From Clostridia bacterium (GTDB taxonomy: Bacteria; Bacillota; Clostridia; Christensenellales; Aristaeellaceae), in contig JAUMVT010000007.1 of the NCBI GenBank assembly GCA_030529995.1, positions 4,170 through 68,169 on the forward strand: a DNA stretch of 64,000 bases. Direction: 5' to 3'. The position numbers and the translations under genes are program-made. The notes under the pieces were generated by a model, which worked only from the letters and a program-made list of their open reading frames with translations, made no database searches and had not been told where the DNA came from. The stretch's first letter is position 1, and every line of letters begins with the position of its first letter. Shown piece after piece: positions 4,207 to 64,000 of the stretch.

Positions 4207-4306
4207 CAGATCGCTCCCTCTGCTTCAAACGAATAAGCTCCTGCTCATTATAGCGACTTCCGCCCTGATGTCAAGGCGAACAAGGAACCTAATATTTGGC
4301 ATAGCA

Positions 4307-4342: not shown

Positions 4343-4361
4343 GATGGACGAGGTTATGTCC

Positions 4362-6622: not shown

Positions 6623-6636
6623 CCCGCCTTTCTATT

Positions 6637-6840: not shown

Positions 6841-6865
6841 TTATTGATCGTGATGATCATGGCTT

Positions 6866-7387: not shown

Positions 7388-7561
7388 CTTTCTGCCTTCC
7401 TTTACGTTTCGCTCATCATGTTCATGGGACGCTTCTATACACCCATGCTTGCTGCTTCCATTCAGTCGGATATGCATTTGCTCCGGTTGGATTCACTGGC
7501 ATGATACAACGATTTTGCTTTTCCGGCAAGACGAATAAGTCCGAAAAGAATCGGCGGTACC

Positions 7562-42393: not shown

Positions 42394-42415
42394 TGAAACC
42401 TCAGTAAAACCTTCC

Positions 42416-42453
42416 GCCGCCCTGCCTGCCGGACTAACCAGCGGCAGGGCGGC
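42416..42453 (+). other. GC-rich intercistronic stem-loop after the binding-protein gene
   Basis: GCCGCCCTGCC / GGCAGGGCGGC perfect 11-bp stem followed by TTCTCTT. May act as a partial terminator or mRNA stabiliser. Confidence 0.5.
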
Positions 42454-42495
42454 TTCTCTTGCAGGGAAAACCAACCACGAGGGAGCGGGTATACA

Positions 42496-44807: not shown

Positions 44808-44839
44808 TCGGTTGACGCAACAAGAAGGAGGCGGGTGCT

Positions 44840-46345: not shown

Positions 46346-46374
46346 CATCCCCCCGCCATTCTTTGAGACATGAA

Positions 46375-46402
46375 TGAAAACGTTACCGATAACGATACCG
46401 AT
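46375..46402 (+). promoter_or_regulatory. Second copy of the tandem operator-like repeat, upstream of malQ-glgP
   Basis: TGAAAACGTTACCGA followed by TAACGATACCGAT. Confidence 0.5.
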
Positions 46403-46434
46403 TAAGGAAAGTCATGATGAAAGGAGAAATGCTT

Positions 46435-50276: not shown

Positions 50277-50328
50277 ACCTTACGCGGCTCGGAACCTTTA
50301 TCCAATCCTATCTTTACATGAAATGCAA

Positions 50329-50380
50329 GACCCGGCGGTTGAACGTGCTTGTATGCCGTTCCATCGCCGGGTCGTTTTCT
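50329..50380. terminator. Stem-loop between convergent glgP and ogt
   Basis: GACCCGGCG ... CGCCGGGTC 9-bp stem with a 27-nt structured loop, followed by GTTTTCT. Confidence 0.45.
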
Positions 50381-50391
50381 GTGAATGAGGG

Positions 50392-50928
50392 TCATGGTTC
50401 ACGCTTCTGCTTGGGCAAGCGCAGCCTACTGACATCGATGCCTTCCAGCTTCAGCAAGGCTATTTTTCGCTCAATACCGCCTGCATAGCCGGTGAGATTG
50501 CCTCCTGCACCCATGACACGGTGGCAGGGAATGATCAGGGAAATGGGATTATGCCCAACGGCGCCGCCAACTGCCTGCGCAGACATGGGGGAGCTGCTCA
50601 TTCGCCTGGACACTTCCACGGCAATCGCCCCATAGGTCATGGTTTGCCCGTAAGGAATGGCCGACATGATATCACATACCATCCGGCGAAAAGGAGAACC
50701 CGTAACCTGCAGCGGGGGAGTAAAGTCGGGCACGCTACCGGAAAAGTAGCCATCCAACCAACGCTTGGTTTCGGAGAAAATAGGAGTGTCAGCCGTCCGG
50801 CATGTGCCCGTAAATCCTTCCATGAAATGCGTTTGGCCGGAGAACCAAAGCCCCAGCAGTGCATGCTCGTTGCAGATCATGGTGATGAGGCCGAGAGGGG
50901 ATTCGTAAGAAGCGGTGAAGCAGGGCAT
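50392..50928 (-). CDS. ogt: Methylated-DNA--protein-cysteine methyltransferase
   Basis: Active site IPCHRV. Start trimmed to MPCFTASYESPLG behind GAAAGGAG. Confidence 0.9.
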   Translation of the reverse strand: MPCFTASYESPLGLITMICNEHALLGLWFSGQTHFMEGFTGTCRTADTPIFSETKRWLDGYFSGSVPDFTPPLQVTGSPFRRMVCDIMSAIPYGQTMTYGAIAVEVSRRMSSSPMSAQAVGGAVGHNPISLIIPCHRVMGAGGNLTGYAGGIERKIALLKLEGIDVSRLRLPKQKREP

Positions 50929-51028
50929 GGAAGCACTCCTTTCAGGGGGATAAGGGGAGTATAGCACAAAAAAGAGAAGCAGAAGAGGCATTCTGCAAGC
51001 AAATGTTGTAAAAGGTTACGTGTATGTG

Positions 51029-51168
51029 ACATGAACGACGAGCAAACGCATCAAGCTAAGTTATTGTCGAAAACTGATTTTGCGAGTGTTCGTATTCGTA
51101 ACAATGGCGAAAAAACAAGCAAAATGCTAGATTTATCGATGCAGATGAGAGGATTACATGAACGATGA
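51029..51168 (+). repeat. Two copies of the 13-mer ACATGAACGAYGA, 127 nt apart, in an AT-rich intergenic region
   Basis: Copies lie at 51029-51041 and 51156-51168. Each contains an ATG opening a short ORF that begins MNDE (45 and 35 codons). Confidence 0.8.
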
Positions 51169-51223
51169 AGGAAGGACATGTTCCCATAACGAAAACAGAA
51201 GTGTGACATTTTCGTTACTTTTC

Positions 51224-51237
51224 AAAAAAAAAAAAAA
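51224..51237 (+). repeat. Homopolymeric A14 tract
   Basis: Fourteen consecutive A residues, 20 nt upstream of the predicted -35 of the vWA/tubulin-like cluster. Confidence 0.95.
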
Positions 51238-51256
51238 GATTCATGTAATTTTTCTA

Positions 51257-51285
51257 TTGAACTGACAGCGGTTCTCTGCTATAAT
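51257..51285 (+). promoter_or_regulatory. Candidate sigma70-type promoter of the five-gene cluster
   Basis: TTGAAC, 17 nt, TATAAT. It lies 111 nt upstream of ATG 51396. Confidence 0.5.
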
Positions 51286-51395
51286 CAAAAGGAATGATTT
51301 CCTTTTCTAGTCCAATGTTCTACGGCACGCAAAATGCAGGAGAAACTCCTCAGACGGCAGCGCCGCAAGAAGCACTTGAAGGAGGCAGCCCTGTC

Positions 51396-54300
51396 ATGAA
51401 GAGAATCCTGTCTGCTATGTTGATGCTATGCGTCTTTCTTGCCTGCCTGACGGGAACCGTTGAGGCGGACACCATGGCTGATACATCTGCCACATCCGGC
51501 ATTGATGTTGTGATTGTGCTGGATATGACGGCATCCATGGATGGCAGCAACAACCCGGATGCAAGGACGAAAAATGATGAGTACAATTATCGTCTGGATG
51601 CGGCAGCCATGCTGATCAGCATGCTGGACATGGATTCTTCCCGTGTGGCAGTGGTGCCTTTTGCATGGGAACCTTTTGAAGATCAGATTATTGACCTGAC
51701 GCCTGTGCCGGACAGCACCTCCCGCAACGAGCTTGTGCAGCAGGTGTATGCCCTGAAGGACTACGGCACGAAGCCGAACACCAATATCGGTGCTGCGCTG
51801 ATGCGGGCTAACCAGATCCTTCAGCAGCGGGATGATGTGGGGAATGAGCCCATGATCATGCTGCTGACGGACGGCAACAATGATATGTCCGGCTCAAAAC
51901 AGACAGTGACCAATTCTCTCCGGTGGGATAGCGCTAACCAAACCATCTACAGCGAAGGAACGCAGAAATATACCACGGATACTGCCAATGCTGTGACCAA
52001 AGAGGCCGTGAACTGCGCCTACACTTTGCAGTACCCGATTTATGCCATTGCTTTGAATGAAGATCCTGATACGGCAGCGGCAGGCGGTCTCTCCTTGCGT
52101 GCTATTTCCGAAGGCAGCGGACTGAGAGACGGCTGCCGGATGGTATCGAAAAACGATGCATCCAGCTTGCCTGAGTATTTCGCAGACTTCTTGGCAGCAC
52201 GGATTGGCTCCAGCGTGCAGCTCTCTGCTTCTCCCGAAAAGGTAGAGGGAATGGAGAACACTTATGAGGTTACCATCCCTGTGCTGAATCAGTCGGTGAT
52301 GGAAATCAATATCATCCTTCCTGTTCACTTGGCAAATGCGAAGGAAACCAGCAAGTGGGGTAAGGGCATTGACGCGTCCAGCATCAAAATGTATGATTCC
52401 GATGGTACACTGCTGTCCAACGCATCGGACATTCAGATTCTGCGCAATGACAACGCTCACTTTGCCATGGTGAAGGTACGCAATCCTCAGCCTAACGGAC
52501 TGTGGACCCTTCGATTCACCAGCAATACGGATCCTAATAACATCTCTTTCAACATTCTCTACAACTACAACATCAAGCTTCAGTCTTCCGTGGAGTCCAC
52601 AACCACTCGGGTGGATGGCTTGTATAAGTCTGACAAGCTGGAGATCACTTCCTGGTTTACCAATGCGGACGGATCCAAGGCATCTGACAGCAACCTTTAT
52701 GCGGATCACCGGGGAGAAGCAGGCTTCGAAGATTGGATGACCATTCAGGGCAGCTGGCAGCTGTATCAGGAACTGGATGGAAAGCGTACGCTTCAGCGAG
52801 AAGGCACCTTGCTTTCCGATGAGACGCTTCGCTGCTTCCATGCGGATGTGGATCTGAGCGAAACGATTCTGCAGGATGGCAATTATGTACTGGTGGTAAG
52901 CGCACAGGGCGCTGGCTTGAACCGCAGCGTGGAACAGAACTTTGTTCTTCTGAACCATGCACCGGAGGCCAAGGACTATGATATAACGCTTAACGTGAAT
53001 TCCACAGATGACACGGAAGACGCCGCGGCTACCTGGACGGTGGAAGGCACCTCCGGCGTGCTGCCTGTGAAGGTTCAGGATTTGGTGAAGGATGCTGACG
53101 GGGATCAGCTGAGCTATACCCTGAAGGCGCTGAACAATGCGGGCAGCATTGTTACCCTGGAAATGGATGAGAGCACCGGCACTTTCACATACCATACAGC
53201 CCAGGACGGCGATAAGCTGGCCAGCGGCGATGCAGTGTATACTTTGTACTATGATGACGGCTGCACAAACGGTGCAGGCAGCATGAACATAACGTTCCAT
53301 GTAGTGTCCGGCGTGGATGAAATGCAGAAGGCTTACACTCCTGTTGTGACAGTAAACGGTACGCCCGGCAATACGCCTGATACTTGGCTAAAGAATACGG
53401 ATCTCACCTTGTCTGTTCAGTTGAAGGACGTCAACGGCGGCTACGCTGATGCGGAGGTTCTGAACCGTTTGTCCGTCCGGGTGGATGCGGTGAATACCAC
53501 GGCGGATGAGAAGGTTTCCTTCACGGAAAATTCTCAGCAGGAAGACAGCCGAGACTTTACCATCAATACTGGCAACAAGGCTGCGACCATTGATGTGACG
53601 GTTACGATTGGCCTTTTCGATCCCATGAAGCTGACGGTGAACATCCCCAACCAAGAAGCACCGGTGGCAGCTGCATCCGGGGCGGCAACCATCTATTGCA
53701 ACGGCACTGATGTACCGTCCTTCCTGAAGGGACTCATTGGCGAAGAAACGTCTCAGGATGCGGCTGAGCTCAATGTGGATATCGAAGCGGAAAAGCTGTT
53801 TACGGACGCCGACAATGATGTTTTGACCTATGCGGCACCGACCTTTGCCCTGCCCGAAAGCGGTGCGGCGGCAGATGCGGCCATGATCACGGCTGAGAAG
53901 ACGGGGGAGAATGCCTACCACATCCTTGTGGACAGCAGTTCGACAGGCATATTCCATGACACCTTTACCGTCACCATGAACATTGTGGCCACGGATGGCG
54001 ACGGCGTGACTTCCGCCGTGCCTTATACCAAGACCTTGACCGTGGTGGATCTGCATAACAAGTTCCTGACCCTTGCGGTGATTGTTGGTATTGCACTGGC
54101 GGTACTGATTGTACTGATCCTGATCATCCATCAGCTGCGGAAGCCTCGCTTTGCAAGACTTGCTGTTTCGGTCACGGAAGCACCCAGTATGTATGAAACT
54201 TCTCGTCTGGAATTGCCCAACAGCAAGGCACCTGTGAATGCAATGAGGCTCGGCGTGAGCGGGGAGAATTGCGGCGTAAGCAACACACAGCTCCTGAATG

Positions 54301-54698
54301 TGCTGCTGAAGCCTAACCGTGCTTCGAAGACGATTGATGTGGTTTGCAAGAAGATTGAGCTGGATTACGAAATCACCATGAGTGAGAAAGCTTTGAAGGC
54401 AGGGAAAAAGGTACAGTGGCACTTGGATGGTGAATTGAAGATTCGCCGGATGAACGAGGAAAGTGCCCTTGTCTTGAAACTTTGCGAGAAGCAGGAAGAT
54501 AGTGGCATGACGGCCTTCATGGATAATGCAGGCGGAGCAGATGATTGGACAAGTGATGATCAAGGCTTCGAAAATGCAGCACCGAAGAAGAGCAAGCGTG
54601 TGAGCCGCTCCACGAGGAAGAATGCTAAGCAGGATACGCACGAGAATAATGTTGATGACTGGAACAATGGAGACGACAATGGCGGTTATGCGTTCTAA
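51396..54698 (+). CDS. Single-pass surface protein: signal peptide, vWA domain, Ig/cadherin-like repeats, TM helix and a roughly 190-aa cytoplasmic tail
   Basis: Start at MKRILSAMLMLCVFLACL behind GAAGGAGG. The MIDAS-type motif DMTAS in VVIVLDMTASMDG (51522-51536) and MIMLLTDGNN are present. DADGDQLSY and DADNDVLTY are cadherin-like motifs. TM helix FLTLAVIVGIALAVLIVLILII at about 54063-54131. Confidence 0.8.
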   Translation: MKRILSAMLMLCVFLACLTGTVEADTMADTSATSGIDVVIVLDMTASMDGSNNPDARTKNDEYNYRLDAAAMLISMLDMDSSRVAVVPFAWEPFEDQIIDLTPVPDSTSRNELVQQVYALKDYGTKPNTNIGAALMRANQILQQRDDVGNEPMIMLLTDGNNDMSGSKQTVTNSLRWDSANQTIYSEGTQKYTTDTANAVTKEAVNCAYTLQYPIYAIALNEDPDTAAAGGLSLRAISEGSGLRDGCRMVSKNDASSLPEYFADFLAARIGSSVQLSASPEKVEGMENTYEVTIPVLNQSVMEINIILPVHLANAKETSKWGKGIDASSIKMYDSDGTLLSNASDIQILRNDNAHFAMVKVRNPQPNGLWTLRFTSNTDPNNISFNILYNYNIKLQSSVESTTTRVDGLYKSDKLEITSWFTNADGSKASDSNLYADHRGEAGFEDWMTIQGSWQLYQELDGKRTLQREGTLLSDETLRCFHADVDLSETILQDGNYVLVVSAQGAGLNRSVEQNFVLLNHAPEAKDYDITLNVNSTDDTEDAAATWTVEGTSGVLPVKVQDLVKDADGDQLSYTLKALNNAGSIVTLEMDESTGTFTYHTAQDGDKLASGDAVYTLYYDDGCTNGAGSMNITFHVVSGVDEMQKAYTPVVTVNGTPGNTPDTWLKNTDLTLSVQLKDVNGGYADAEVLNRLSVRVDAVNTTADEKVSFTENSQQEDSRDFTINTGNKAATIDVTVTIGLFDPMKLTVNIPNQEAPVAAASGAATIYCNGTDVPSFLKGLIGEETSQDAAELNVDIEAEKLFTDADNDVLTYAAPTFALPESGAAADAAMITAEKTGENAYHILVDSSSTGIFHDTFTVTMNIVATDGDGVTSAVPYTKTLTVVDLHNKFLTLAVIVGIALAVLIVLILIIHQLRKPRFARLAVSVTEAPSMYETSRLELPNSKAPVNAMRLGVSGENCGVSNTQLLNVLLKPNRASKTIDVVCKKIELDYEITMSEKALKAGKKVQWHLDGELKIRRMNEESALVLKLCEKQEDSGMTAFMDNAGGADDWTSDDQGFENAAPKKSKRVSRSTRKNAKQDTHENNVDDWNNGDDNGGYAF

Positions 54699-54728
54699 AT
54701 AATCTTGAATTGAAAAGGGGATCGTGTC

Positions 54729-57700
54729 ATGGCTGAGCAGAAGTTCGATATTTCCATTGAGCGGGTTGAAAAGATTCCTGTTCCGTTGCTGGTGATTGGA
54801 TTGGGCGGCACAGGCTGCGATGCGCTGAAGGCAGTGAAGCGTACCTTTGCCGAGCGGTATGTGCTGCCGGTGAATGCGGATGGTCAGACCCAGGCAGCAC
54901 CGCCGAAAACGGCCTATCTGGGTTTTGACAGCCTGAGTGAACGACCGGACGGCTTGGAAATCAACGAGTATGTGGATATTTCCATTGCCGGCATGGATAA
55001 GATCCTGACCAATCAGGATACGCTGCTCCAGCCCTATGAGCGGTCATGGGTCAACCGTGACCTTCGCCATGAGGCTGCCGGCCTTGGCATGGGCACTGTC
55101 CGTCAGGCTGCCCGACTGGCTCTGTGCCGAAATTACGACAAGGTAACCAATGCACTGAGAGGCGCATTGAACAATATTGTCTCCGTTGCCGCGGGTGCTC
55201 CCGGCAGCCCGGTGAATCGTATTGAGATCGTGATCCTGACAGGCATCAGCGGCGGTACGGGTTCCGGCACCTTCTTGGACATGGCACAGATTGTGCGCTA
55301 CGTTGGTTCGCAGGTGTCCCAGTTGCCGGTGCGTATTACAGGCTATCTTGTCATGCCTGATGTTTCGCTGGAGAGAGTCAAGGGTGCTTCCGGCATGGAG
55401 GATCCCATCAAGCACAATGCGTATGCTGCCCTGAAGGAACTGGATTTCTGGATGCGCGTGAAGGACCATGAAGTTCCTTACACCATGCAGTACAATGCGA
55501 CAACCAGCATTACCTGGAGCGAGAAGCCTTTTGACAGCTGCCTGCTGATGAGCTCTACCAACACGAAGGGCCTTCCTTATAAGGATGGCTATGAAGCCGT
55601 CATGAATACCATCGCCGAAAACCTGATGCACTACATGGCGCATGAGGATGGCGTTACCACCCAGTATTCCTATCGTCAGTATGAGGACAACCTGGGTGCC
55701 ATCCAAATCAGTAAGCGGTATCCGGCGTTCTATGGCTACCGGGCAATCGGTGCCTTCACCAAGCGGATTCCGAAGAAAGCTTTGCTGTACTACGAAGGAA
55801 AACGCCTGCTGTCTACCTTTATTCCCCTGCGGGACAGCAAGGGCGTTTTACAGCCTGACCGCCGCATGTTCACGGATGGACAGGGAGAACATCGGGCACA
55901 GCAGATTATCGGCTCCGGCGGACAGATGATGCAGGATTTCCGCACTCGCATTTGCCGGTTGCCTTCGTATTGCTCTACCGACTTGTCTGATAAGATTAAG
56001 GTCTCTGAAGTTCAGAATATGAATCCGCCAGCCCATAACCGCTGGCACCAGCAGCGGAATACGGATTGCGCTCCTGCGGCTTTGAAAGCATCGGAAAAGT
56101 ATCTGAACGAGGCATGGAATCGGTTTGTTCAGTTTGCGAATACTGTTATTACGGATCCGGAACAGGGACCCTTTGCACTGCGGCTTTATCTGGATGATGT
56201 ATCCGGCCTGCTTTCCGAAATGAATAAAACCTTGGAAACGTGGACAAGCTATAGAAATAAGTTCCGTAAGGAAATTAGCCAGTGGGAGGAGACTTGCAAG
56301 AGCAGCTTCGGGAATTTCTGCCATCCGCCGCTTCTGGGCAGAAAGACCGCGCTGGAAACCTATGACCATGCTCTTCGTTCTCTTTACACGGCTGTGTGGA
56401 ACAGTGAATTCATGGAGTGCTATGTGCCTGCGCTGGAAAAGCTGATTCTTCGGGTGAAAGAATATCTGGCCGATGGCTTGAAGCCTATGTGCAACACCAT
56501 CGAGAAGCTGGAAGAAGAATTCAACACCATCGAATCCACGGATACTACCCTGGTGCAGGATATCTATCAGCTGGATGATGTGAAGGGAAAGATTGATGAA
56601 GTCTTTACTGATGCAAACGCTAATAACCGGCTGGCCGTTTCCTTCCTGCAGGAAGTAACGACCATCTCCATGCTGAATGCGCCCAATGTGGACAGTAAGT
56701 CCTCCGGCGTTATGTTCCTGTGTCGCAATGCAGGGCTTGAAAAGCTCTGCGGCATGCTGCAGCAAAAATTGACGGAAACCTACGGGGATGTGAACGATCA
56801 GTCTCTGGACTCCATCATGGTAAGCAATGTTGGAGAGGACATCGCCAAGCAGCAGCAGTGGATGAATCGCCTGGCCACCGAGGTACTGGACAGTGCAGTG
56901 CCTATGTTTATGCAGGATGCGGTCTTCCAAAGTGAGGACAAGGCACCCTACAGCTATATGTCCATTCCTTACAATGCGAAAAAGCACATGGAGTACATCA
57001 GCGAGGCGTTTAAGACCCATGATCCTGCGGTAGAGCCGAAGGAAAGCTCCCTGAAGGATCACATTTATTGCTTGAACACCTGGGATAAGCTGCCTCTGTA
57101 TCGCTATGGCAAAATGGAAGAACTGCGGACGACCTATGATGCCGACCTGAATAAAGACGGCGCATCGAAGGGCATGCACTTGGTGTGCAACGGTGATCCT
57201 AACGCCAGCTACCAGTCGGACTGGACAAAGCTTCCTTCGCCCAAGCCTTATTTCCTCTTCCCGGGAACCGGCACGCTCAGCGAGCAAGCCCAGTATGAGC
57301 ACGTGAAAGATCTGGTGCGGGATGGTATGGCATGCGGCATGGTAGAAGTTTCGACGGATAACCCCGTCGTTTCGGTAAAGGTTCACCTGCAGTATGCGCC
57401 GGGTACGAACGCTTTCAAGACCTCTGAAACCATGCGTCAGGATCGGGCGGTGATTGTGGCTGAGAAGAATCCTGCCACAGGGGCACCTTACACGAAGGCG
57501 GAAATCGGAGAAAAGCTGGCGGCTTACCTGAACTCCGGAAAAACAGTCTATTTGGAGGAGAAGGAAGTTCGGCCATCGCAGCTGGCCAATGTACTTGGCT
57601 TAACCAATGAGCCCTGCGATCCCTTTGATGTTACTGTTCAGGCGGATATTGCGGCAATGGCAAAGGCCAAGGAAAACCATGCAAAGCTGTGCGTGGCGAT

Positions 57701-58310
57701 GGCTGAGGCAATTATTTACCGCCGCCCGGACATGATGCGTGCGATTGAAATGCAGCTGCCCGCTGTGAAGGAGATCCGCAAGGAAGCGGAGGAAGCGGCA
57801 AGAATTGCGGCTGCATGGAAAAAACGCAAGGAGTTTGCTCCGGAGGCAGCAGAGCTGTTTATTTTCCTGAACGATGTAATTTCCTTGGGCGGTTCCGGCT
57901 ATCGCTACAAGTACAAGGGCGAAAAGTACGATATGGTGAGTGAAAACCTGCTTGCTGACGACCTGAAGGACGTTTCTGACTATGTGAAGGTCATTGCTTT
58001 CCTGGCCGAAGTTCCTGAAAGCAACAGCACGAAGGCAACCTTGACGCGGATGCTGAAGGATGCCAAGGATGCCTATGACACGGCGGTAGATGGGGAGACT
58101 GTAACGGCTGAAGAAATGCAGGATCTGCTGGATGCTGCCAATGATCTGAAGGACGAAGCGGATGAGGAAGCAGTGAGGTTGGAGCATGAAACGCACAGCA
58201 ACCCCAGCGAGGCAGATGCGCTGACGTATCAGATGGAACTGATGCAGGCATTCAGTAAAGCAATCGAAAAGAACATAAGAAGCTTTAAGAAAATTCAAAA
58301 GGGTCTGTAA
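54729..58310 (+). CDS. Giant tubulin/FtsZ-signature GTPase-like protein (Tubulin_2 / FtsZ-like family candidate), 1193 aa
   Basis: AAGGGG SD. PLLVIGLGGTGCDAL (T1-like, nt 54798-54815) and ILTGISGGTGSGTFLD (T4 tubulin signature, nt 55251-55271) lie about 150 residues apart. The C-terminal region is long and mostly helical. Confidence 0.7.
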   Translation: MAEQKFDISIERVEKIPVPLLVIGLGGTGCDALKAVKRTFAERYVLPVNADGQTQAAPPKTAYLGFDSLSERPDGLEINEYVDISIAGMDKILTNQDTLLQPYERSWVNRDLRHEAAGLGMGTVRQAARLALCRNYDKVTNALRGALNNIVSVAAGAPGSPVNRIEIVILTGISGGTGSGTFLDMAQIVRYVGSQVSQLPVRITGYLVMPDVSLERVKGASGMEDPIKHNAYAALKELDFWMRVKDHEVPYTMQYNATTSITWSEKPFDSCLLMSSTNTKGLPYKDGYEAVMNTIAENLMHYMAHEDGVTTQYSYRQYEDNLGAIQISKRYPAFYGYRAIGAFTKRIPKKALLYYEGKRLLSTFIPLRDSKGVLQPDRRMFTDGQGEHRAQQIIGSGGQMMQDFRTRICRLPSYCSTDLSDKIKVSEVQNMNPPAHNRWHQQRNTDCAPAALKASEKYLNEAWNRFVQFANTVITDPEQGPFALRLYLDDVSGLLSEMNKTLETWTSYRNKFRKEISQWEETCKSSFGNFCHPPLLGRKTALETYDHALRSLYTAVWNSEFMECYVPALEKLILRVKEYLADGLKPMCNTIEKLEEEFNTIESTDTTLVQDIYQLDDVKGKIDEVFTDANANNRLAVSFLQEVTTISMLNAPNVDSKSSGVMFLCRNAGLEKLCGMLQQKLTETYGDVNDQSLDSIMVSNVGEDIAKQQQWMNRLATEVLDSAVPMFMQDAVFQSEDKAPYSYMSIPYNAKKHMEYISEAFKTHDPAVEPKESSLKDHIYCLNTWDKLPLYRYGKMEELRTTYDADLNKDGASKGMHLVCNGDPNASYQSDWTKLPSPKPYFLFPGTGTLSEQAQYEHVKDLVRDGMACGMVEVSTDNPVVSVKVHLQYAPGTNAFKTSETMRQDRAVIVAEKNPATGAPYTKAEIGEKLAAYLNSGKTVYLEEKEVRPSQLANVLGLTNEPCDPFDVTVQADIAAMAKAKENHAKLCVAMAEAIIYRRPDMMRAIEMQLPAVKEIRKEAEEAARIAAAWKKRKEFAPEAAELFIFLNDVISLGGSGYRYKYKGEKYDMVSENLLADDLKDVSDYVKVIAFLAEVPESNSTKATLTRMLKDAKDAYDTAVDGETVTAEEMQDLLDAANDLKDEADEEAVRLEHETHSNPSEADALTYQMELMQAFSKAIEKNIRSFKKIQKGL

Positions 58311-58415
58311 GCCTGCGTAGATTTTTATAGAAAAGCGCAGGGTGGTGCCTTCAGGACAGGTCGCAGGTGCGGTCTGCCCTGAAGGTCTATCACCATATAG
58401 GAGGAACGAGGGACA

Positions 58416-60950
58416 ATGACGATCAGCACAACGGCTGCAAATATTGTTGTTCTTTATGGCGATGAAGCCGCAAAGCATTTTGTGGATTTGGTGAAGCAGT
58501 GGGATAAACTGCTCAATGCAGATGGATGGGCATCCCTGTATTTTTTGATTGTATCCAGCCATGACCAGGAGTACAATCAACTGACCCAAGAGGAATGGAA
58601 TCGTGTTAGTCCGATAACCACCTATCTTAACATTAATGAGCAGCCGCTATCAACAAATGAGTACGCTGAAATTGCGTGGAGGTTGCCGAATGCGGGCAGC
58701 CCTAAGCTCCATCTGATTTGCGCAGCCGGACGTGAGCACTGTACCTATGATTGGCTGGAAAGCTTCACGCAGAATGTGCTGAAGGACGATGTCCATTTCA
58801 CCCAGTTCTTGCTCTATTATGTGCTGGGGAGAGACAGCCTGCCGGATGAAAAGAATGGCATGCATCGTGTGCTGCAAACTATTCAGGGGCAGGGGCATCA
58901 TGACCATGTGTTCCTCATTGGTGATACGGATGACGGCGGACAGAAAGTGAACAGTGATGCCATGTGGAATGCACTGTATCTGTCTGCCGTAATGAACTGT
59001 GCCGATAAATTGCACCTGAGCACAGAAACCTATTCGGTGGGCTATTCCGTGCTGAATGCGAATGGCAGCGAATTGGAAAACCTTCGCTTAGCCGCTTCGT
59101 GCCTTGCCGTGCAGGAACGCTTGCAGGAGGGAGAACTGTCGTCAGCTGAAGCGGTACCTGCTTTGCTGCCATCGGGCGTGGCAAGCGTTTCGGCACTGGA
59201 AGAGTGGCTAAAGAAAACAGTGCGTGAGTCTGTTCGCATTGCGAAAAGCGATTTCGGTAATGCGTGGATCACCATTCGCATGGATGCAGACCTGGATGAA
59301 ACGGAAACGTGCAAGCGCCTGAAACGGTTCGTTGACATGAATTATTGTCAATCGGCAACGATGGCTGAACGGGCGGAAAGCTTTGCACAGCAGGTGAAAA
59401 ACGAAGTTGTGGACCGGTTGTGCCGCACACCGAAAGCGGCGATTATGCCTGCGTCTGCAGCCGGCGACATTGCGTCTGCATTGGAACGCATGAGCAAGGA
59501 CGATGTACCGGCTATTCGGTGCACCTTCGGAAAGAAGCCTTTCCTCAAAACAGCAGGCAGGATGTCTCAATACGTGGAGGAAAACAAAGAAGCGGCTTTT
59601 AAGGCAGCAGGAACGCATGCAATGCAGCTGAATATGCAGACATATGCAAATGCTCTTGCCCAGGCATATCGGTCAATTGAAGAGTGGCTCAACAGAATGC
59701 ATTCCGGGAAAGTACCTGAAATGGACATCGTTGCTTATTTGCAGCGCAGAATGAGAAAGCTTGAAAAACCGGAGTCGGGGAATACGGACTATCTTCGGAC
59801 AAAGAAATATCCCAAGTATTGGAAGGAGCTGACGAATCTCCACCCTGCATTGCAGGAAATTACAGAGAACATGGAAAGCGAAGCCCAATACTTTGATGAA
59901 AACGGAAATTATGTGGAAGCAGGATGGGAAAGCCTGCTTGCCAGCGCACAGCAGGTGCTGAGAGACCAACTGCCGGGACGTATGAGCCTAAGATTCTTCG
60001 ATGTGCTGCACGCGGAGTTTGACGATGAAAAGCTGACGGAGTTCTTTGCGGATTACCTGAAGCCTGGTCGGCGCATGTATTACAATATGAGGGCGATTGT
60101 AGGCAATGCGCAGTCTTTCTATCTGGTGGATGAAGATCTGGCGAGTGCCTGGAAAAATGCGCCGGAAGGCCTTTTTGAAGTGCAGACGGATAACGCTGAG
60201 AATCTGACCCTGTATCCGATTGAGGGAAGCGGGGAGCAATCCTGGATCCTCGACAGCGGAGAAGCCTATTTTCATGGCGCAAGCATGGGCAGACTTTCCA
60301 AGCTGGCAGACCGGGAACAGGGTCAGTCTCCCGTGACAAGCCAGAGGAAAATCAGTAACCTTGCTTCTTCTCAGAAAGCACACTCGGCTCCTGCGGAACG
60401 CCATGAAGAAACGGATACGCATGGACTAAAACTGCAGCCCAATGCTCAGAATCATTACATGCTTTCCTGGGATTGGCAAGGCAATGATCAGCTTGCAAAA
60501 ATTACAATTACCCAGCTTGGTGAGCAAGTGGGATTTGATGTTGTTGATGTGAAGACGTTCAAGAAAAACAACGGGCAATTTGACGTGACGGCAAAAATGA
60601 TGGGTGGGAAGCCGATTCCTTACGGAGAATTGACAGTTACCATTTACTCAGGAGAGGGGAAGACCCCCTACATTGACCGTGCAACAGTGATGGGAAGATG
60701 TGAACAGGTCAACTATAGCATAAAGGGTAGCAAATTAGAAATGAAACAAGCTGCGCCCGGTGTGCTGAATCGTGTTGCATTGCGGATTACCAATAAGGAA
60801 GGCAAGTGGCTGTACTATCCTTTGTATGCAGGCAATGAGGATCATCCGTATACCTTTGAAAGACTGAATTTGGATGATGCTAAAGTTGTTCAGGCACCGA
60901 CAGAGCAAACGGACAGCAAAAAGGTACCGATCTTTATTCAACAAGTTTAA
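58416..60950 (+). CDS. Hypothetical 844-aa protein, possibly a nucleotide-loop-degenerate paralogue of the upstream tubulin-like protein
   Basis: AGGAGG SD. NIVVLYGDEAAKHF and HVFLIGDTDDGGQKV sit at the same positions and spacing as the GGTG loops of the neighbouring gene. The C-terminal domain is beta-rich. Confidence 0.7.
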   Translation: MTISTTAANIVVLYGDEAAKHFVDLVKQWDKLLNADGWASLYFLIVSSHDQEYNQLTQEEWNRVSPITTYLNINEQPLSTNEYAEIAWRLPNAGSPKLHLICAAGREHCTYDWLESFTQNVLKDDVHFTQFLLYYVLGRDSLPDEKNGMHRVLQTIQGQGHHDHVFLIGDTDDGGQKVNSDAMWNALYLSAVMNCADKLHLSTETYSVGYSVLNANGSELENLRLAASCLAVQERLQEGELSSAEAVPALLPSGVASVSALEEWLKKTVRESVRIAKSDFGNAWITIRMDADLDETETCKRLKRFVDMNYCQSATMAERAESFAQQVKNEVVDRLCRTPKAAIMPASAAGDIASALERMSKDDVPAIRCTFGKKPFLKTAGRMSQYVEENKEAAFKAAGTHAMQLNMQTYANALAQAYRSIEEWLNRMHSGKVPEMDIVAYLQRRMRKLEKPESGNTDYLRTKKYPKYWKELTNLHPALQEITENMESEAQYFDENGNYVEAGWESLLASAQQVLRDQLPGRMSLRFFDVLHAEFDDEKLTEFFADYLKPGRRMYYNMRAIVGNAQSFYLVDEDLASAWKNAPEGLFEVQTDNAENLTLYPIEGSGEQSWILDSGEAYFHGASMGRLSKLADREQGQSPVTSQRKISNLASSQKAHSAPAERHEETDTHGLKLQPNAQNHYMLSWDWQGNDQLAKITITQLGEQVGFDVVDVKTFKKNNGQFDVTAKMMGGKPIPYGELTVTIYSGEGKTPYIDRATVMGRCEQVNYSIKGSKLEMKQAAPGVLNRVALRITNKEGKWLYYPLYAGNEDHPYTFERLNLDDAKVVQAPTEQTDSKKVPIFIQQV

Positions 60951-60977
60951 CGGATTGAGATAGGGAGGAATGAAATA

Positions 60978-62471
60978 ATGGAAGTAAGCCATGTATGCCC
61001 TTATTGCGGTAAAGAAATTGACGTTGAAGAGATTCTCTTTTGGACGAAGAGCAAGCAGCAGTTTGATGATCCGCTTCGTGCTGGTTTTTTGCGCAGTCAT
61101 GGTGTGACAACCGGTGAAAAATTTGCCCGAGTGTATTTTAAGCCCTGTTTTGACGGAGAACGTAAAAACGTCATTAAGGTGGACTGCAATGATTATTATC
61201 CCACCATGCTGGAGGATGCGCGCTCCAATGGCCTTTCTCCGAAGCAGCTTGAAGGTAAGGACGATGCCTTTGGCGATGGTGACGATGATACTTATGACGA
61301 TGAATACAGGACGCAGCGATCCAATAGTAAAAAGAAAACAACGGAAGAGAAGTGCAGAATTGTTCAAAGAGCGTGCCCCCATTGCCATTGCGAGCTTCCT
61401 CAGGGATTTGGCGTACTGCCGGTTCATCATGTGGCCATGTTTGGCATTCGTGCCGCAGGAAAGACGGCCTATTTGGTGAACCTGTTTCAGCAGGTGAACG
61501 CCCAATTGAGCAATAATAATTTAGGCTCCGTGATGCTGGCAGAGGACAGCAAGCTTTTTCTGCAGCCGCTGATTGAAACGTACGAGGACAGCGGTAATAC
61601 AAAGGCAACGACGGCGGATAACGGTCTGCTGCCTATTGTGTGTCAGTACAAAAATGGCGGAAAAGAATCTTTTATCGTTTTTTATGACATTGCAGGAGAA
61701 GCTGTAACACAGAGCGATTATATGGCAAACCATAAAGGTATTCAGAACTGTGAAGCGCTTTTGATGATGATTGATCCTAACATGCTTACTTCAGGCGCAT
61801 TTGCAGCTGCATGGGAGAATGCGCATGGAGCTGGCAGCGAAGATATGATATATCCTACGATTGATGCATTCCTGAATGAAGCAGGGGTGATTTGTCAAGA
61901 TTTTGCCGACCATCTGAAGTCCATTGTTTGCGTGATTACCAAAATGGATATGGTACTGGAAAAGGATTCTGACCTGTTTGGCGGAGCAAACAGCAAACTG
62001 GAAATTACGACGGATATCGGCAAAAAGCATCTGAACCATGTTAACCTTCGCGTCCTAGCAGAAGTACGGAATAATTTGAATACTTTCCTGCAAAAGCAGT
62101 ATAGTGTGAACCTGAGCAAGAAGATTCATGATACCTTCGGTCAGGATCGTCAGGTGTATCTGCTGGGTGTTTCTACCTCTACGCGGGTGCCATCAGCCCC
62201 CGGCAATTCGAAAATCTGCTTTGAGCCTAAGAATTCTGCTAACGATCCCAAGCATCGAATCATTGAACCTTTCCTGGTGATTGCAATGACCTTTGGCCTC
62301 GTCAGCGGTGTGGATGATAAAGGCGATGTGAAGTGGTTCACAGGCAATGTGAAGCTGCCTGAGCGTGAATCGACTGCTGAGACCCCGCAGAAGCAGGAAA
62401 AGAAGGAAGCCGGACAAGCAACGAAGAAAAAGAAAGGCTTTTTCAGCAGGCTCTTTGGAGGCAGAAAATGA
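60978..62471 (+). CDS. Zinc-ribbon-containing P-loop GTPase with a C-terminal amphipathic membrane-targeting helix
   Basis: GGGAGG SD. CPYC (C7/C10) and CPHCHC (C133/C136/C138). G1 GIRAAGKT (61443-61466), G3 DIAGE (61686-61700) and G4 TKMD (61938-61949). Tail KKKKGFFSRLFGGRK. Confidence 0.75.
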   Translation: MEVSHVCPYCGKEIDVEEILFWTKSKQQFDDPLRAGFLRSHGVTTGEKFARVYFKPCFDGERKNVIKVDCNDYYPTMLEDARSNGLSPKQLEGKDDAFGDGDDDTYDDEYRTQRSNSKKKTTEEKCRIVQRACPHCHCELPQGFGVLPVHHVAMFGIRAAGKTAYLVNLFQQVNAQLSNNNLGSVMLAEDSKLFLQPLIETYEDSGNTKATTADNGLLPIVCQYKNGGKESFIVFYDIAGEAVTQSDYMANHKGIQNCEALLMMIDPNMLTSGAFAAAWENAHGAGSEDMIYPTIDAFLNEAGVICQDFADHLKSIVCVITKMDMVLEKDSDLFGGANSKLEITTDIGKKHLNHVNLRVLAEVRNNLNTFLQKQYSVNLSKKIHDTFGQDRQVYLLGVSTSTRVPSAPGNSKICFEPKNSANDPKHRIIEPFLVIAMTFGLVSGVDDKGDVKWFTGNVKLPERESTAETPQKQEKKEAGQATKKKKGFFSRLFGGRK

Positions 62472-64000
62472 ATATCGATGTGCAGTATTACATTGGCGGC
62501 GATACGCCAAAGTCAGGCTTCGGTGTCATTGGCAGATCGGATAACTTTCATGAAGACGCTGATACGCTGTGGATCAACCATGGCAGTGAAGTGGAGGATC
62601 GTTCCCGTATTGAACCGACTGATTACAGACAGCCGGATAGCCTTAGCAGACTCTGTCATGTATGGGAGTATCAAACGGATTCCTTTGGCGCGCCTGCCTT
62701 CATCTCTTCTTATGTGGGAATCAGCAATCGAGGCCGATTTCATGGCTTTGCGGAATACATTATGCCGGAGCTGGATCAACCGGTTTCTCAAATTGCCGCG
62801 GCAGGGCAGATGATCGATGCAGCTGCCCGGCTGAATACGCTGGATTTTTACGAGTTCTGGGAAACGGAAAGCACGCCGATTCCGCCTCGGGATTATGTCC
62901 TTGCCATTCGGGATGTGTTGCCTGCTGCCTGGATGAAGAACGGGAAAATCGATGAGACGTGGCTGCTGACGCTGGTGAGCCGGTACTGGGAAAGCGCATC
63001 CCGGCGAGCGTTCTCCCAAGGATCCTTTCGGCCGGTGCTTGTATGCCTGGGAGAATTTGCGGAAGAAAAGCAGGAAGATATCGATTGTACAATTGAAAAG
63101 GCGAGAGCATTCTATGCAACTGAGATTGCGCCCAAACTGCCGGCGCAGGTGCAGAACATTACTTCTTTTGCTGCCGGTGTGGATTGCCGGGATGTAATTG
63201 ATCGCTTGAATTCTGCACTGCTTTTCTGCATTGATGAAAACCTGAACGTCGAAGATGCACTGCAGCTGGATGAACCGAAGGCGTTGGGGCAGTATAAGCT
63301 TTGCCCGGCAGAAATGAACTTCATCCAGGATGTGGCAAACGGGAAAACACCAACGCTGGTAGCTGAGGTGATGAAGCAGTATCAAGCATTGCACCCTGAT
63401 GCAAACTTGGATATGCATCAAATTCCGTTCATGTCGGATTATCGAGTCTGGTATCAATTATATTGTGTAGAACATCTGATCCAAGATGGCTCGGCGTTCT
63501 TGCAGCAAGCAAATCTGGATATAGAAGAAAATGAAGAGGATAAGATTCGCATTCGTCCGGCACGCTCCTACTTTCTGCTGATGAATGAGCTGCGGGACGT
63601 GTTCCTTGATCATAGCAAGGAGGTCAAGAAGGCAGAGGTTGACGTTCTGCTGAAGGGGTGCGAGGAAAAGCTTCTTCAAATGATGCTGGAAAGCATGCAG
63701 GCTCAAGATGCAAAGCCCTTTATTGTGCGCCCTTCGGAAATGCGCATGTGGCATGCGAAGATTCTTGCGACCCCTTATGAGGAATTGGCTTCGCTGATGA
63801 TGCAGCTGCTTACCATGGATCAGAAGCTGCGGGCGGAAATGCTGAGCTTCATTCGGGCTTTGCCAAGCACGAGAATGAGCGAAACCACGGATGAGCGCAA
63901 TGCGGCGCTGATGAGATCTCTGCTGGAAAATTGTATTCGTCCGCTGATTGAGCACGAACTCGGAAAAGAAAAAATTGCCGATGAATCTCCGCTGCGGAAC
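62468..64000 (+). CDS. Hypothetical protein, fifth gene of the cluster, with its 3' end outside the window (more than 511 codons)
   Basis: Not in the supplied ORF track. ATGA start/stop overlap with the GTPase gene, with GGAGG 6 nt upstream. I read the frame stop-free to 64000: MNIDVQYYIGGDTPKSGFGVIGRSDNFHEDADTLWINHG... The composition looks protein-like, unlike the antisense ORFs. Confidence 0.7.
   Translation, partial: MNIDVQYYIGGDTPKSGFGVIGRSDNFHEDADTLWINHGSEVEDRSRIEPTDYRQPDSLSRLCHVWEYQTDSFGAPAFISSYVGISNRGRFHGFAEYIMPELDQPVSQIAAAGQMIDAAARLNTLDFYEFWETESTPIPPRDYVLAIRDVLPAAWMKNGKIDETWLLTLVSRYWESASRRAFSQGSFRPVLVCLGEFAEEKQEDIDCTIEKARAFYATEIAPKLPAQVQNITSFAAGVDCRDVIDRLNSALLFCIDENLNVEDALQLDEPKALGQYKLCPAEMNFIQDVANGKTPTLVAEVMKQYQALHPDANLDMHQIPFMSDYRVWYQLYCVEHLIQDGSAFLQQANLDIEENEEDKIRIRPARSYFLLMNELRDVFLDHSKEVKKAEVDVLLKGCEEKLLQMMLESMQAQDAKPFIVRPSEMRMWHAKILATPYEELASLMMQLLTMDQKLRAEMLSFIRALPSTRMSETTDERNAALMRSLLENCIRPLIEHELGKEKIADESPLRN

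What the first reader, a model, noticed from the sequence alone, without database searches (positions are those of the whole stretch)
60978..62471. Split zinc ribbon fused to a Ras-like G1/G3/G4 GTPase core
CPYC at residues 7-10 and CPHCHC at 133-138 are separated by an acidic low-complexity linker (DDAFGDGDDDTYDDEY). Then come GIRAAGKT (Walker A/G1), a hydrophobic strand plus DIAGE (G3) and VITKMD (a [NT]KxD specificity motif, which implies guanine).

I cannot assign this to a named GTPase family. It sits in the same operon as a tubulin-type GTPase, so the cluster would contain two mechanistically different GTP switches.
Basis: partly seen in the sequence, partly recalled or inferred. Interest (0 to 1): 0.7.

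Follow-up and report, generated by a model that had tools for sequence, protein, structure and literature searches.

The report
Zinc-ribbon DO-GTPase in tubulin/vWA operon
The gene encodes a real zinc-ribbon-plus-GTPase protein, but it belongs to a family (DO-GTPases) that was described computationally in 2020 as the switch of tubulin- and vWA-containing bacterial conflict systems, so it is a new member of a known but experimentally untested kind.

Summary
ORF 60978-62471 (+, 497 aa) carries every motif at the stated residues. C7, C10, C133, C136, H137, the G1 residues G156/G161/K162/T163, the G3 residues D237/G240/E241 and the G4 residues K322/D324 are invariant in relatives down to 17% identity.

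An AlphaFold2 model (pLDDT 88.6) matches only TRAFAC-class GTPases by Foldseek.

The protein passes Pfam's cut-off for DO-GTPase2 (PF19993), as do 32 of 37 relatives at E <= 0.01. It fits the description in Kaur et al. 2020 (eLife): TRAFAC GTPase, Walker-B glutamate, N-terminal zinc ribbon, Firmicutes operon with Tubulin_2 and vWA proteins. Makarova and Koonin (2010) had already noted such GTPases in vWA/FtsZ-like operons.

Points I add:
- There is a single composite Cys4 site split by a 104-177 aa variable insert.
- The C-terminal tail is 8/10 identical to the E. coli MinD membrane-targeting sequence.
- Each operon has one GTPase, not two.
- The translationally coupled downstream partner could not be shown to be GAP1.
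- Some relatives carry TIR or LRR fusions.

Function (a membrane-proximal GTP switch governing tubulin-like assembly in an immunity system) is inferred, not shown. Interest is moderate to low.

The parts
60978..62471 (+). DO-GTPase gene (497 aa): composite zinc ribbon with insert domain, TRAFAC GTPase core and a basic amphipathic tail.
   Evidence: ORF. Pfam DO-GTPase2: 31.4 bits against a cut-off of 27, residues 152-331. AF2 pLDDT 88.6. Foldseek finds TRAFAC GTPases.
60996..61007 (+). Zinc knuckle 1, CPYC (residues 7-10).
   Evidence: C7 and C10 are invariant in A6. Coordinates.
61008..61373 (+). Insert between the two knuckles (residues 11-132). It has a confidently modelled beta-rich subdomain (residues 20-91) and a low-confidence acidic linker (95-110 = nt 61260-61307).
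   Evidence: pLDDT is 92-97 for residues 11-90 and 52-53 for 101-120. Insert length is 104-177 aa and not alignable across the superfamily.
61374..61391 (+). Zinc knuckle 2, CPHCHC (residues 133-138). C133, C136 and H137 are invariant.
61443..61466 (+). G1 / Walker A, GIRAAGKT (residues 156-163).
   Evidence: G156, G161, K162 and T163 are invariant.
61608..61610 (+). T211, candidate G2 / switch I threonine, in the loop before the beta-hairpin 220-237.
   Evidence: Conserved in at least 90% of A2. The assignment is inferred.
61686..61700 (+). G3 / Walker B, DIAGE (residues 237-241). It carries the family-defining glutamate E241.
   Evidence: D237, G240 and E241 are invariant in A6. The Walker-B Glu is given as the family hallmark in PMC7159879.
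61938..61949 (+). G4, TKMD (residues 321-324), of the form [NTS]KxD.
   Evidence: K322 and D324 are invariant.
62166..62186 (+). GVSTSTR (residues 397-403), a G5-like motif after the last core strand.
   Evidence: S399, T400 and T402 are conserved in at least 90% of A2. The strand is 392-397. The assignment is inferred.
62250..62276 (+). KHRIIEPFL (residues 425-433), a conserved C-terminal motif of unknown role.
   Evidence: R427, E430 and P431 are invariant in A2. P431 is invariant and E430 is conserved in at least 90% of A6.
62424..62468 (+). Basic tail KKKKGFFSRLFGGRK (residues 483-497). It resembles the MinD membrane-targeting sequence.
   Evidence: KGFFSRLFGG against the E. coli MinD MTS KGFLKRLFGG is 8/10 identical (PMC5471200). 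69 of 113 relatives have a basic cluster followed by G and two hydrophobic residues, with mean net charge +4.9 over the last 20 aa. pLDDT is below 50.
62468..64000 (+). Downstream partner gene. Its ATG overlaps the GTPase stop codon (ATGA) and it runs off the window. Relatives are 1060-1668 aa. It is a positional equivalent of GAP1, but homology is unproven.
   Evidence: No GAP1 Pfam hit. hhalign against the sister-clade GAP1 family gives prob 56%, E=1.1e-4 full-length but prob 1.2% for the N-terminal domain alone.
58416..60950 (+). Conserved 844-aa protein of unknown family ('p844'), directly upstream of the GTPase.
   Evidence: Present in the 25 fetched loci that span this position. No Pfam or NCBIfam hit. 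Not related to Tubulin_2: hhalign prob 1%.
54729..58310 (+). Tubulin_2 (FtsZl1-type) protein, 1193 aa, with a long C-terminal extension. The T4 signature GGTGSG is at nt 55251-55268.
   Evidence: PF13809, E=1e-46. Motif.
51396..54698 (+). vWA membrane protein: signal peptide, extracellular vWA domain with MIDAS-like DMTAS, long extracellular region, one TM helix (about residues 925-946 of the 1134-aa ORF) and a cytoplasmic tail. The longest ORF starts at 51294, but the RBS-preceded ATG at 51396 is the likelier start.
   Evidence: VWA PF00092, E=1.7e-9. Hydropathy and MIDAS. Internal start and GGAGG. Orthologue gene calls start at the equivalent ATG.

Best explanation
The gene encodes a member of the DO-GTPase family (Pfam DO-GTPase2). 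This is a TRAFAC-class GTPase whose N-terminus forms one Cys4 zinc ribbon from two distant CxxC knuckles, which clamp a variable insert domain. Its C-terminus ends in a flexible basic linker plus a MinD-like amphipathic helix.

It is the single P-loop switch of a Firmicutes-type 'tubulin theme' DO-GTPase system. In the window the gene order is: extracellular-vWA membrane protein, Tubulin_2 protein, p844, GTPase, large partner protein.

The most likely mechanism is as follows. The GTPase binds GTP through G1, G3 and [T]KxD, and E241 serves in hydrolysis. It sits at the inner face of the membrane through its tail and works as a stoichiometric pair with the translationally coupled downstream protein. 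Its nucleotide state gates assembly or activity of the tubulin-like polymer, in response to signals relayed from the surface-exposed vWA components. The system would be a conflict (anti-invader) or envelope-surveillance system.

Shown here: the fold, the motifs, family membership, the conserved gene order and the translational coupling. Inferred: zinc binding, GTP specificity and hydrolysis, membrane binding, partner interaction and the biological role.
For: Family membership:
- DO-GTPase2 scores 31.4 bits against a cut-off of 27.
- 32 of 37 relatives match it at E<=0.01, and distant relatives also hit it.
- DO-GTPase1 scores only 16.6 bits, which is consistent with the N2-type.
- The family features listed in PMC7159879 are all seen: TRAFAC clade, Walker-B Glu (E241 invariant) and an N-terminal ZnR.

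Context:
- The paper's Firmicutes theme is tubulin with a coiled coil, a vWA protein with an extracellular vWA domain and TM, and a partner gene downstream.
- This matches the window and the 27 related loci.
- Makarova and Koonin 2010 describe the same GTPases in vWA/FtsZl1 operons.

Partner:
- There is an ATGA start/stop overlap.
- The pair is retained in the LRR-fused relative L109.
- In a sister clade the downstream gene is a recognisable GAP1-N2 or GAP1-M protein.

Membrane: the tail is 8/10 identical to the MinD MTS and is conserved in character across the family.

Immunity reading:
- TIR_2 is fused to the N-terminus of several relatives.
- One of these sits among mobile-element genes.
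- The cluster has lower G+C (0.47-0.52) than the preceding 50 kb (0.555).
Against: - No experiment exists for any DO-GTPase in the searched literature.
- PADLOC has no model matching any cluster protein.
- The Pfam score is only just above threshold.
- The partner protein shows no GAP1 Pfam hit in 20 family members, and the profile link is unstable.
- The paper says N2-type GTPases usually carry two ZnRs and that Firmicutes systems carry two tubulin genes. Here there is one Cys4 site and one Tubulin_2 gene, and p844 is not a tubulin.
- The flanking genes are housekeeping (maltodextrin and glycogen genes, ogt), not a defence island.
- Proximity of the four cysteines in the model could not be measured.
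Confidence: 0.55

Rival explanations
1. The protein is the same, but the system is a housekeeping membrane-remodelling or cytoskeletal machine, as Makarova and Koonin proposed in 2010 for FtsZl1 operons, rather than an immunity system. In this reading the GTPase regulates where and when the tubulin-like polymer shapes the membrane or cell surface.
For: The membrane-remodelling hypothesis was put forward for vWA/FtsZl1/GTPase operons in PMC2875224. All surface-exposed and membrane features are compatible with it. The MinD-like tail is typical of cell-division and positioning proteins. The genomic neighbours are housekeeping genes. There are no PADLOC hits.
Against: Close and distant relatives carry TIR fusions, and one sits among mobile-element genes. 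G+C is lower than in the flanking sequence. The distribution is patchy: only 21 loci were found among representative genomes of 185,579 species. The partner and accessory proteins diverge fast, at 17-22% identity among distant relatives.
Confidence: 0.25
2. The zinc-ribbon-plus-insert module is itself the sensor, binding for example a nucleic acid or a foreign protein. The GTPase would then act as an autonomous NTP-dependent oligomerising trigger, like STAND or GIMAP/IRG-type immune NTPases, and the tubulin operon would be only one of several interchangeable outputs.
For: The TIR-ZnR-GTPase relative P0075 stands alone without tubulin, vWA or partner genes. That shows the module can be combined directly with an effector. 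The insert between the knuckles is hypervariable, as expected for a recognition surface. LRR fusions also exist.
Against: Within the tubulin operons the partner gene is strictly retained and translationally coupled. The insert domain of the window protein is modelled as packed against the core with high confidence, not as a free module. No nucleic-acid-binding family was detected.
Confidence: 0.12
3. The protein is a degenerate pseudo-GTPase or an ATPase that serves only as a scaffold, and the motifs are relics.
For: The catalytic Gln of Ras is replaced by Glu. No sequence-level match to any solved GTPase was found.
Against: G1, G3 and G4 residues are invariant across 17-48% identity. That is not expected for relics. 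The Glu is itself invariant and is the family hallmark.
Confidence: 0.04

Closest known systems
DO-GTPases of GAP1-N2-type 'GTPase-centric' conflict systems (Kaur, Burroughs, Iyer, Aravind, eLife 2020; Pfam PF19993 DO-GTPase2)
   Same: TRAFAC GTPase with a Walker-B glutamate and an N-terminal zinc ribbon. It sits in a Firmicutes operon with a Tubulin_2/coiled-coil protein and a membrane vWA protein whose vWA domain is extracellular. A large partner gene lies immediately downstream, and the setting is membrane-proximal.
   Different: There is one GTPase per operon, not a paralogous pair. There is one composite Cys4 site rather than 'two ZnRs'. The window has one Tubulin_2 gene, and p844 is not a tubulin. 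The partner is not recognisable as GAP1 by Pfam. The membrane anchor is a MinD-like amphipathic tail rather than TM segments. The Pfam score is only marginally above threshold.
Diverged GTPases of vWA/FtsZl1 operons (Makarova and Koonin, Biol Direct 2010)
   Same: A predicted P-loop GTPase with Walker A, Walker B and TxKD motifs, encoded beside an FtsZ-like-1 (Tubulin_2) gene and a vWA gene.
   Different: That paper gives no zinc ribbon, no partner protein and no family model. It proposes membrane remodelling rather than conflict.
MinD (ParA/MinD family) C-terminal membrane-targeting sequence
   Same: The tail KGFFSRLFGG is 8/10 identical to the E. coli MinD MTS KGFLKRLFGG, preceded by a basic cluster.
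   Different: The similarity covers the tail only. The NTPase domain is a TRAFAC GTPase, not a SIMIBI deviant-Walker-A ATPase, so this is convergence or a shared short motif, not family membership.
MglA/MglB and other prokaryotic Ras-like GTPase plus regulator pairs
   Same: A small-GTPase-fold switch encoded with a dedicated partner gene. Foldseek matches to Ras, Rho and Rab reach TM 0.5-0.65 normalised to the target.
   Different: There is no sequence-level relationship (0 PDB hits at E<=10). The protein is much larger, with a ZnR/insert and a C-terminal extension. It has Glu rather than Gln in G3. The partner is more than 1000 aa, with no longin or roadblock match in Foldseek.

Membership tests
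DO-GTPase (Pfam PF19993 DO-GTPase2; Kaur et al. 2020) | Matches the family HMM above Pfam's curated cut-off | tested here: met
   31.4 bits against a cut-off of 27, E=2e-7, residues 152-331. 32 of 37 relatives match at E<=0.01. The margin is small.
DO-GTPase (Pfam PF19993 DO-GTPase2; Kaur et al. 2020) | TRAFAC-clade P-loop GTPase fold | tested here: met
   AF2 pLDDT 88.6. 101 Foldseek PDB hits at E<=1e-3, and the 50 best listed are almost all TRAFAC GTPases. A beta-hairpin at 220-237 precedes Walker B.
DO-GTPase (Pfam PF19993 DO-GTPase2; Kaur et al. 2020) | Conserved glutamate in the Walker B motif | tested here: met
   DIAGE: E241 is invariant in 32 divergent relatives. The feature is stated in PMC7159879.
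DO-GTPase (Pfam PF19993 DO-GTPase2; Kaur et al. 2020) | One or two N-terminal zinc ribbons (60% of the family; 'usually two' in N2-type systems) | tested here: met
   There is one Cys4 set (C7, C10, C133, C136), invariant, with no additional CxxC in the 104-177 aa insert. So there is one split ribbon, not two. Metal binding and geometry were not testable.
DO-GTPase (Pfam PF19993 DO-GTPase2; Kaur et al. 2020) | GAP1 (N2 type) encoded immediately downstream | tested here: inconclusive
   A large gene overlaps the GTPase stop codon and is conserved in relatives. However, 0 of 20 members hit GAP1-N2, GAP1-M or GAP1-C at E<=1. The sister-clade downstream genes do hit GAP1-N2 (33.5 bits) and GAP1-M. 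hhalign between the two families gives prob 56%, E=1.1e-4 full-length, but prob 1.2% for the N-terminal domain alone.
DO-GTPase (Pfam PF19993 DO-GTPase2; Kaur et al. 2020) | Two paralogous GTPases ('double'; present in 38% of systems, so not obligatory) | tested here: not met
   Only one GTPase-type Walker A per operon in the four complete related operons examined (L001, L003, L005, L016).
Firmicutes tubulin theme of GAP1-N2 systems (Kaur et al. 2020) | Tubulin-domain protein(s) with a C-terminal extension, plus vWA proteins including one with an extracellular vWA domain and TM | tested here: met
   Tubulin_2, E=1e-46, 1193 aa. The vWA protein has a signal peptide, MIDAS-like DMTAS and one TM. 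The window has only one tubulin gene. Relatives such as L005 have two, and a second ~445-aa vWA occurs in most relatives but not the closest ones. The rest of the operon lies beyond the window end.
FtsZl1-operon GTPases (Makarova and Koonin 2010) | P-loop GTPase with Walker A, Walker B and TxKD, encoded in a vWA/FtsZl1 operon | tested here: met
   Motifs. Operon. Description.
Ras superfamily small GTPases | Sequence-level membership (Ras/Rab/Rho/Arf profiles; DxxGQ; G5 SAK) | tested here: not met
   No Ras-family Pfam hit at E<=1. The family profile finds 0 PDB sequences at E<=10. Foldseek identity is 9-15%. G3 has Glu in place of Gln.
   None among the top 50 Foldseek PDB hits. No Pfam hit.

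The most novel reading that the evidence does not exclude
The DO-GTPase is a GTP-dependent, MinD-like peripheral membrane tether. Together with its giant partner it would recruit or nucleate the Tubulin_2 polymer at the membrane when the surface-exposed vWA receptor is engaged. That would make it a complete outside-in signalling route from an extracellular adhesin-like sensor to a tubulin cytoskeleton in a bacterium, used for abortive infection or containment. In this reading the split zinc ribbon holds a hypervariable recognition or adaptor domain.
Probability: 0.15. Interest if true: 0.75.

Novelty: new member of a known kind. Interest (0 to 1): 0.35.

Why it matters
DO-GTPase/tubulin/vWA systems are widespread: 2037 representative clusters at E<=1e-3 for this clade alone, and 904 organisms with GAP1-N2 systems in the 2020 survey. 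None has been studied experimentally.

This gut-Clostridia example gives a compact, confidently modelled GTPase with clear mutational targets:
- K162, E241 and D324 in the GTPase motifs
- the four zinc-ribbon cysteines
- the MinD-like tail

That makes testable the proposal that a P-loop GTPase controls a bacterial tubulin at the membrane. It does not reveal a new kind of protein. Its value is as a well-defined entry point into a family that has so far only been predicted.

Tried and rejected
- NCBIfam and PADLOC scans of the four cluster proteins gave nothing useful.
- A profile of 113 relatives against all PDB sequences gave 0 hits at E<=10. There is no sequence-level affiliation with any solved GTPase.
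- I tested whether p844 is the 'second tubulin' of Firmicutes systems. It is rejected (hhalign prob 1%).
- I tried to prove the downstream gene is GAP1. Pfam on the window fragment, on three full-length orthologues and on 20 family members was negative throughout. The word-indexed searches reached only close relatives without annotation. The paper's supplement holds no sequences. I then fetched a sister clade whose downstream genes are GAP1-N2 or GAP1-M. The profile-profile link is unstable, so this is left inconclusive.
- I tested whether the partner's N-terminus is a longin/roadblock GTPase-regulator fold. Foldseek does not support it: there are no hits at E<=1e-3, and the best is T6SS TagF at E=6e-3. 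I found no literature linking TagF to DENN or longin domains. The idea is dropped.
- I tried to measure Cys-Cys distances in the model.
- I tested whether the TIR-fused relative sits in a disrupted tubulin operon. It is rejected: its 846-aa neighbour is unrelated to p844, and the upstream ORF is not a tubulin.
- Searches for 'DO-GTPase2' and 'FtsZl-1' as literal strings found nothing.
Full report
**Observation**

The window has a 497-aa ORF at 60978-62471 on the + strand. A GGGAGG ribosome-binding site lies about 8 nt upstream of its ATG.

- CPYC 7-10
- acidic stretch DDAFGDGDDDTYDDEY 95-110
- CPHCHC 133-138
- GIRAAGKT 156-163
- DIAGE 237-241
- TKMD 321-324

The gene is the fourth in a tightly spaced, co-directional cluster:
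- a vWA membrane protein (51294/51396-54698)
- a Tubulin_2 protein (54729-58310, gap 30 nt)
- an 844-aa protein of no known family (58416-60950, gap 105 nt)
- the GTPase (gap 27 nt)
- a further large ORF whose ATG overlaps the GTPase stop codon (ATGA) and which runs off the window end

Upstream of the cluster are ordinary genes: a maltodextrin ABC transporter, amylase, 4-alpha-glucanotransferase, glycogen phosphorylase and ogt.

**Is it more than chance?**

A word-indexed search found 141 relatives. An exhaustive HMMER search with a 113-sequence profile found 2037 cluster representatives at E<=1e-3 and 609 at E<=1e-10.

In the 113-sequence alignment, P134, C136, H137, G156, G161, K162, T163 and K322 are invariant. 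C7, C10, C133, C138, D237, G240, E241, T321 and D324 are conserved in at least 90%.

In a deliberately divergent 32-sequence alignment (17-48% identity to the query, mean column identity 21%), C7, C10, C133, C136, H137, G156, G161, K162, T163, D237, G240, E241, K322 and D324 are all invariant.

**Fold**

An AlphaFold2 model built on the 113-sequence alignment has mean pLDDT 88.6 and pTM 0.86. Low confidence is confined to the acidic linker (about 95-120) and the last ~45 residues.

Foldseek against the PDB gives 101 matches at E<=1e-3. The 50 best listed are almost all TRAFAC-class GTPases: Ski7, EF-Tu, EF-2, eRF3, RhoA, Rab7, Rac, MRAS, G-alpha, Roco, Gtr/Rag and YcjX. Sequence identity is only 9-15%, and TM-scores normalised to small GTPases are about 0.5-0.65.

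At the sequence level nothing is close. The family profile finds no PDB chain even at E<=10.

So 'P-loop GTPase core' is confirmed. 'Ras-like' holds only at fold level. The septin and dynamin suggestions are not supported.

**Family assignment**

DO-GTPase1 scores 16.6 bits.

32 of 37 relatives hit DO-GTPase2 at E<=0.01, and much more distant relatives also hit it at 17-31 bits.

The family was defined by Kaur, Burroughs, Iyer and Aravind (eLife 2020, PMC7159879). They describe a previously unrecognised TRAFAC family with a conserved Walker-B glutamate. About 60% of members have one or two N-terminal zinc ribbons. The GTPase is typically followed by a gene for 'GAP1' and works near the membrane.

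Their GAP1-N2 class has a Firmicutes/Actinobacteria 'theme' built on tubulin-domain proteins with C-terminal coiled coils. It also includes vWA proteins, one of which has an extracellular vWA domain.

DIAGE supplies the hallmark glutamate. The window's gene order matches the theme. The thing is therefore known at the computational level.

I found no experimental work on any DO-GTPase, and PADLOC has no model for any cluster protein.

**Conserved context**

Twenty-seven related loci were fetched: L001-L006 by exact-protein look-up and L007-L027 from the genome scan. The genome-scan records are titled as uncultured gut or rumen Clostridia (Christensenellales, Limiplasma, Aristaeellaceae, Oscillospiraceae), apart from one titled only 'bacterium' and one contig probably mislabelled Phocaeicola.

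The complete loci repeat this order:
- vWA (~1100 aa)
- Tubulin_2 (~1200 aa, once or twice)
- p844 (~820-860 aa)
- GTPase (~480-530 aa)
- a large partner (1060-1668 aa)
- a small protein (144-207 aa)
- another large protein (900-1250 aa)
- usually a ~445-aa vWA protein

The window ends inside the partner gene. Its product is 100% identical over the 510 residues in the window to a GenBank record named 'hypothetical protein, partial [Clostridia bacterium]' from a 68-kb MAG contig.

Each of the four complete operons examined (L001, L003, L005, L016) contains a single GTPase-type Walker A, so here the 'double' GTPase is single. p844 is not a degenerate tubulin (hhalign probability 1%).

**The zinc ribbon**

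Only two CxxC dyads exist. Both are invariant across the superfamily, while the sequence between them is 104-177 aa long (median 142) and not alignable between subclades. It contains no further CxxC in any of 32 divergent members.

In the model each dyad sits at the turn of a beta-hairpin (bridges at residues 6 and 13; strands 130-132 and 139-140). Residues 20-91 of the insert form a confidently modelled beta-rich subdomain.

I could not measure Cys-Cys distances because model coordinates are not exposed, so the geometry remains inferred.

This differs from the paper's statement that N2-type GTPases usually have two ribbons.

The invariant H137 that follows the second knuckle has no assigned role.

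**An addition: the tail**

The protein ends KKKKGFFSRLFGGRK. The E. coli MinD membrane-targeting sequence is KGFLKRLFGG (PMC5471200), so 8 of 10 positions are identical.

In the family, 69 of 113 tails have a basic cluster followed by G and two hydrophobic residues. The mean net charge of the last 20 residues is +4.9. The same pattern recurs in distant relatives, for example KKGFWSRLFGR and KRGLFRRLFGRKR. The preceding ~30 residues are low-confidence and polar.

I infer a flexible linker plus an amphipathic membrane anchor. That fits the paper's conclusion that these systems act at the membrane, but through a different device from the TM segments it mentions.

**The partner gene**

Neither the window fragment, three full-length orthologues, nor any of 20 family members hits a GAP1 Pfam model, even at E<=1.

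I therefore fetched 80 loci of a sister GTPase clade. These again carry vWA, Tubulin_2 and a second vWA, plus an FtsK/SpoIIIE-like ATPase. In them the gene right after the GTPase does hit GAP1-N2 (33.5 bits, cut-off 24) or GAP1-M (22.3 bits, cut-off 24) in some members.

Profile-profile comparison of the two downstream families is collinear from the N-terminus over 391 columns, with E=1.1e-4 but probability only 56%. When restricted to the first 260 residues it drops to probability 1.2%.

An AF2 model of the window fragment (pLDDT 73.9) has no PDB match at E<=1e-3. The best is T6SS TagF at E=6e-3.

The partner is therefore a positional equivalent of GAP1, and homology is unresolved. The pair is nonetheless the conserved core: an LRR-fused GTPase relative keeps the partner directly downstream at 41% identity.

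**Function**

Shown: fold, motifs, family, operon and translational coupling. Everything else is inferred.

I think the likeliest mechanism is that of the 2020 proposal, refined as follows:
- The protein is a membrane-tethered GTP switch. G1 and G3 with E241 handle binding and hydrolysis, and [T]KxD gives guanine specificity.
- It works with its coupled partner.
- It gates assembly or action of the tubulin-like polymer in response to surface vWA components.
- The system is a conflict system.

Support for an immunity role:
- TIR_2 is fused to the N-terminus of close and distant relatives.
- One solitary TIR-ZnR-GTPase sits among IS605/TnpB and T4SS-coupling-protein genes.
- The cluster has lower G+C (0.47-0.52 against 0.555).
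- Accessory proteins diverge fast.

Against an immunity role: the flanks are housekeeping genes and no defence-database model matches. The older membrane-remodelling hypothesis therefore remains a serious rival.

**Verdict**

The protein is a new member of a family already described computationally, not a new kind of GTPase.

What remains interesting:
- The family has not been tested experimentally.
- The zinc site is single and split.
- The tail resembles the MinD membrane-targeting sequence.
- The identity of the partner is unresolved.

Noticed in passing
window 62424-62468 (GTPase residues 483-497): The C-terminal tail KGFFSRLFGG is 8/10 identical to the E. coli MinD membrane-targeting sequence KGFLKRLFGG. 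A basic cluster followed by G and two hydrophobic residues recurs across the superfamily.
   Followed up: yes
window 51294-51396: The longest vWA ORF starts at 51294. An internal ATG at 51396 (M35) is preceded by GGAGG and gives a clean signal peptide (MKRILSAMLMLCVFLACLTGTVEA). Gene calls in the orthologue loci use the equivalent start.
   Followed up: partly
window 58416-60950: A conserved ~844-aa protein (p844) sits between the tubulin and the GTPase in the 25 related loci that span this position. It has no Pfam or NCBIfam match and is not related to Tubulin_2 (hhalign prob 1%). Its C-terminal third looks beta-rich.
   Followed up: partly
window 50001-64000 compared with 1-50000: G+C falls from 0.555 in the first 50 kb to 0.47-0.52 in the cluster genes, with the GTPase gene lowest at 0.465. 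This is compatible with horizontal acquisition. A 14-nt A-run and a TTGAAC/TATAAT promoter-like pair lie just upstream of the vWA gene.
   Followed up: no
L108 10001-11878 (protein P0075): A TIR_2-ZnR-GTPase fusion stands alone, without tubulin, vWA or partner genes. Nearby are an IS605 OrfB/TnpB-like gene, an HTH_3 gene, a T4SS coupling protein and a PP2C gene.
   Followed up: partly
L029 13847-17023 and equivalent positions in sister-clade loci: Sister-clade DO-GTPase/tubulin/vWA clusters end with a ~1060-aa FtsK/SpoIIIE-family ATPase (E=4.9e-22). The window's clade has no such gene.
   Followed up: no
L005 111-3722 compared with 3798-7424: Where two Tubulin_2 paralogues are present, the first lacks the GGTGSG nucleotide-binding signature and the second keeps it. 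This suggests an inactive/active tubulin pair.
   Followed up: no
L007 (CAVGBO010000071.1): A contig carrying an 86%-identical GTPase in the same operon is labelled Phocaeicola dorei. Every other relative whose record names a taxon is an uncultured Clostridia MAG, so this is probably a binning error.
   Followed up: no
window 62468-63997 (model mc136f6e297e4): The best structural match for the partner protein's N-terminal 510 aa is the type VI secretion regulator TagF (9t0n, E=6e-3, prob 0.97; P. aeruginosa TagF entries score lower). The match is weak and was not interpreted further.
   Followed up: partly
window 41173-50991: Directly upstream of the cluster lie a maltodextrin/glycogen utilisation block (solute-binding protein, two ABC permeases, alpha-amylase, 4-alpha-glucanotransferase, glycogen phosphorylase) and a minus-strand ogt gene. 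These are ordinary housekeeping genes.
   Followed up: no
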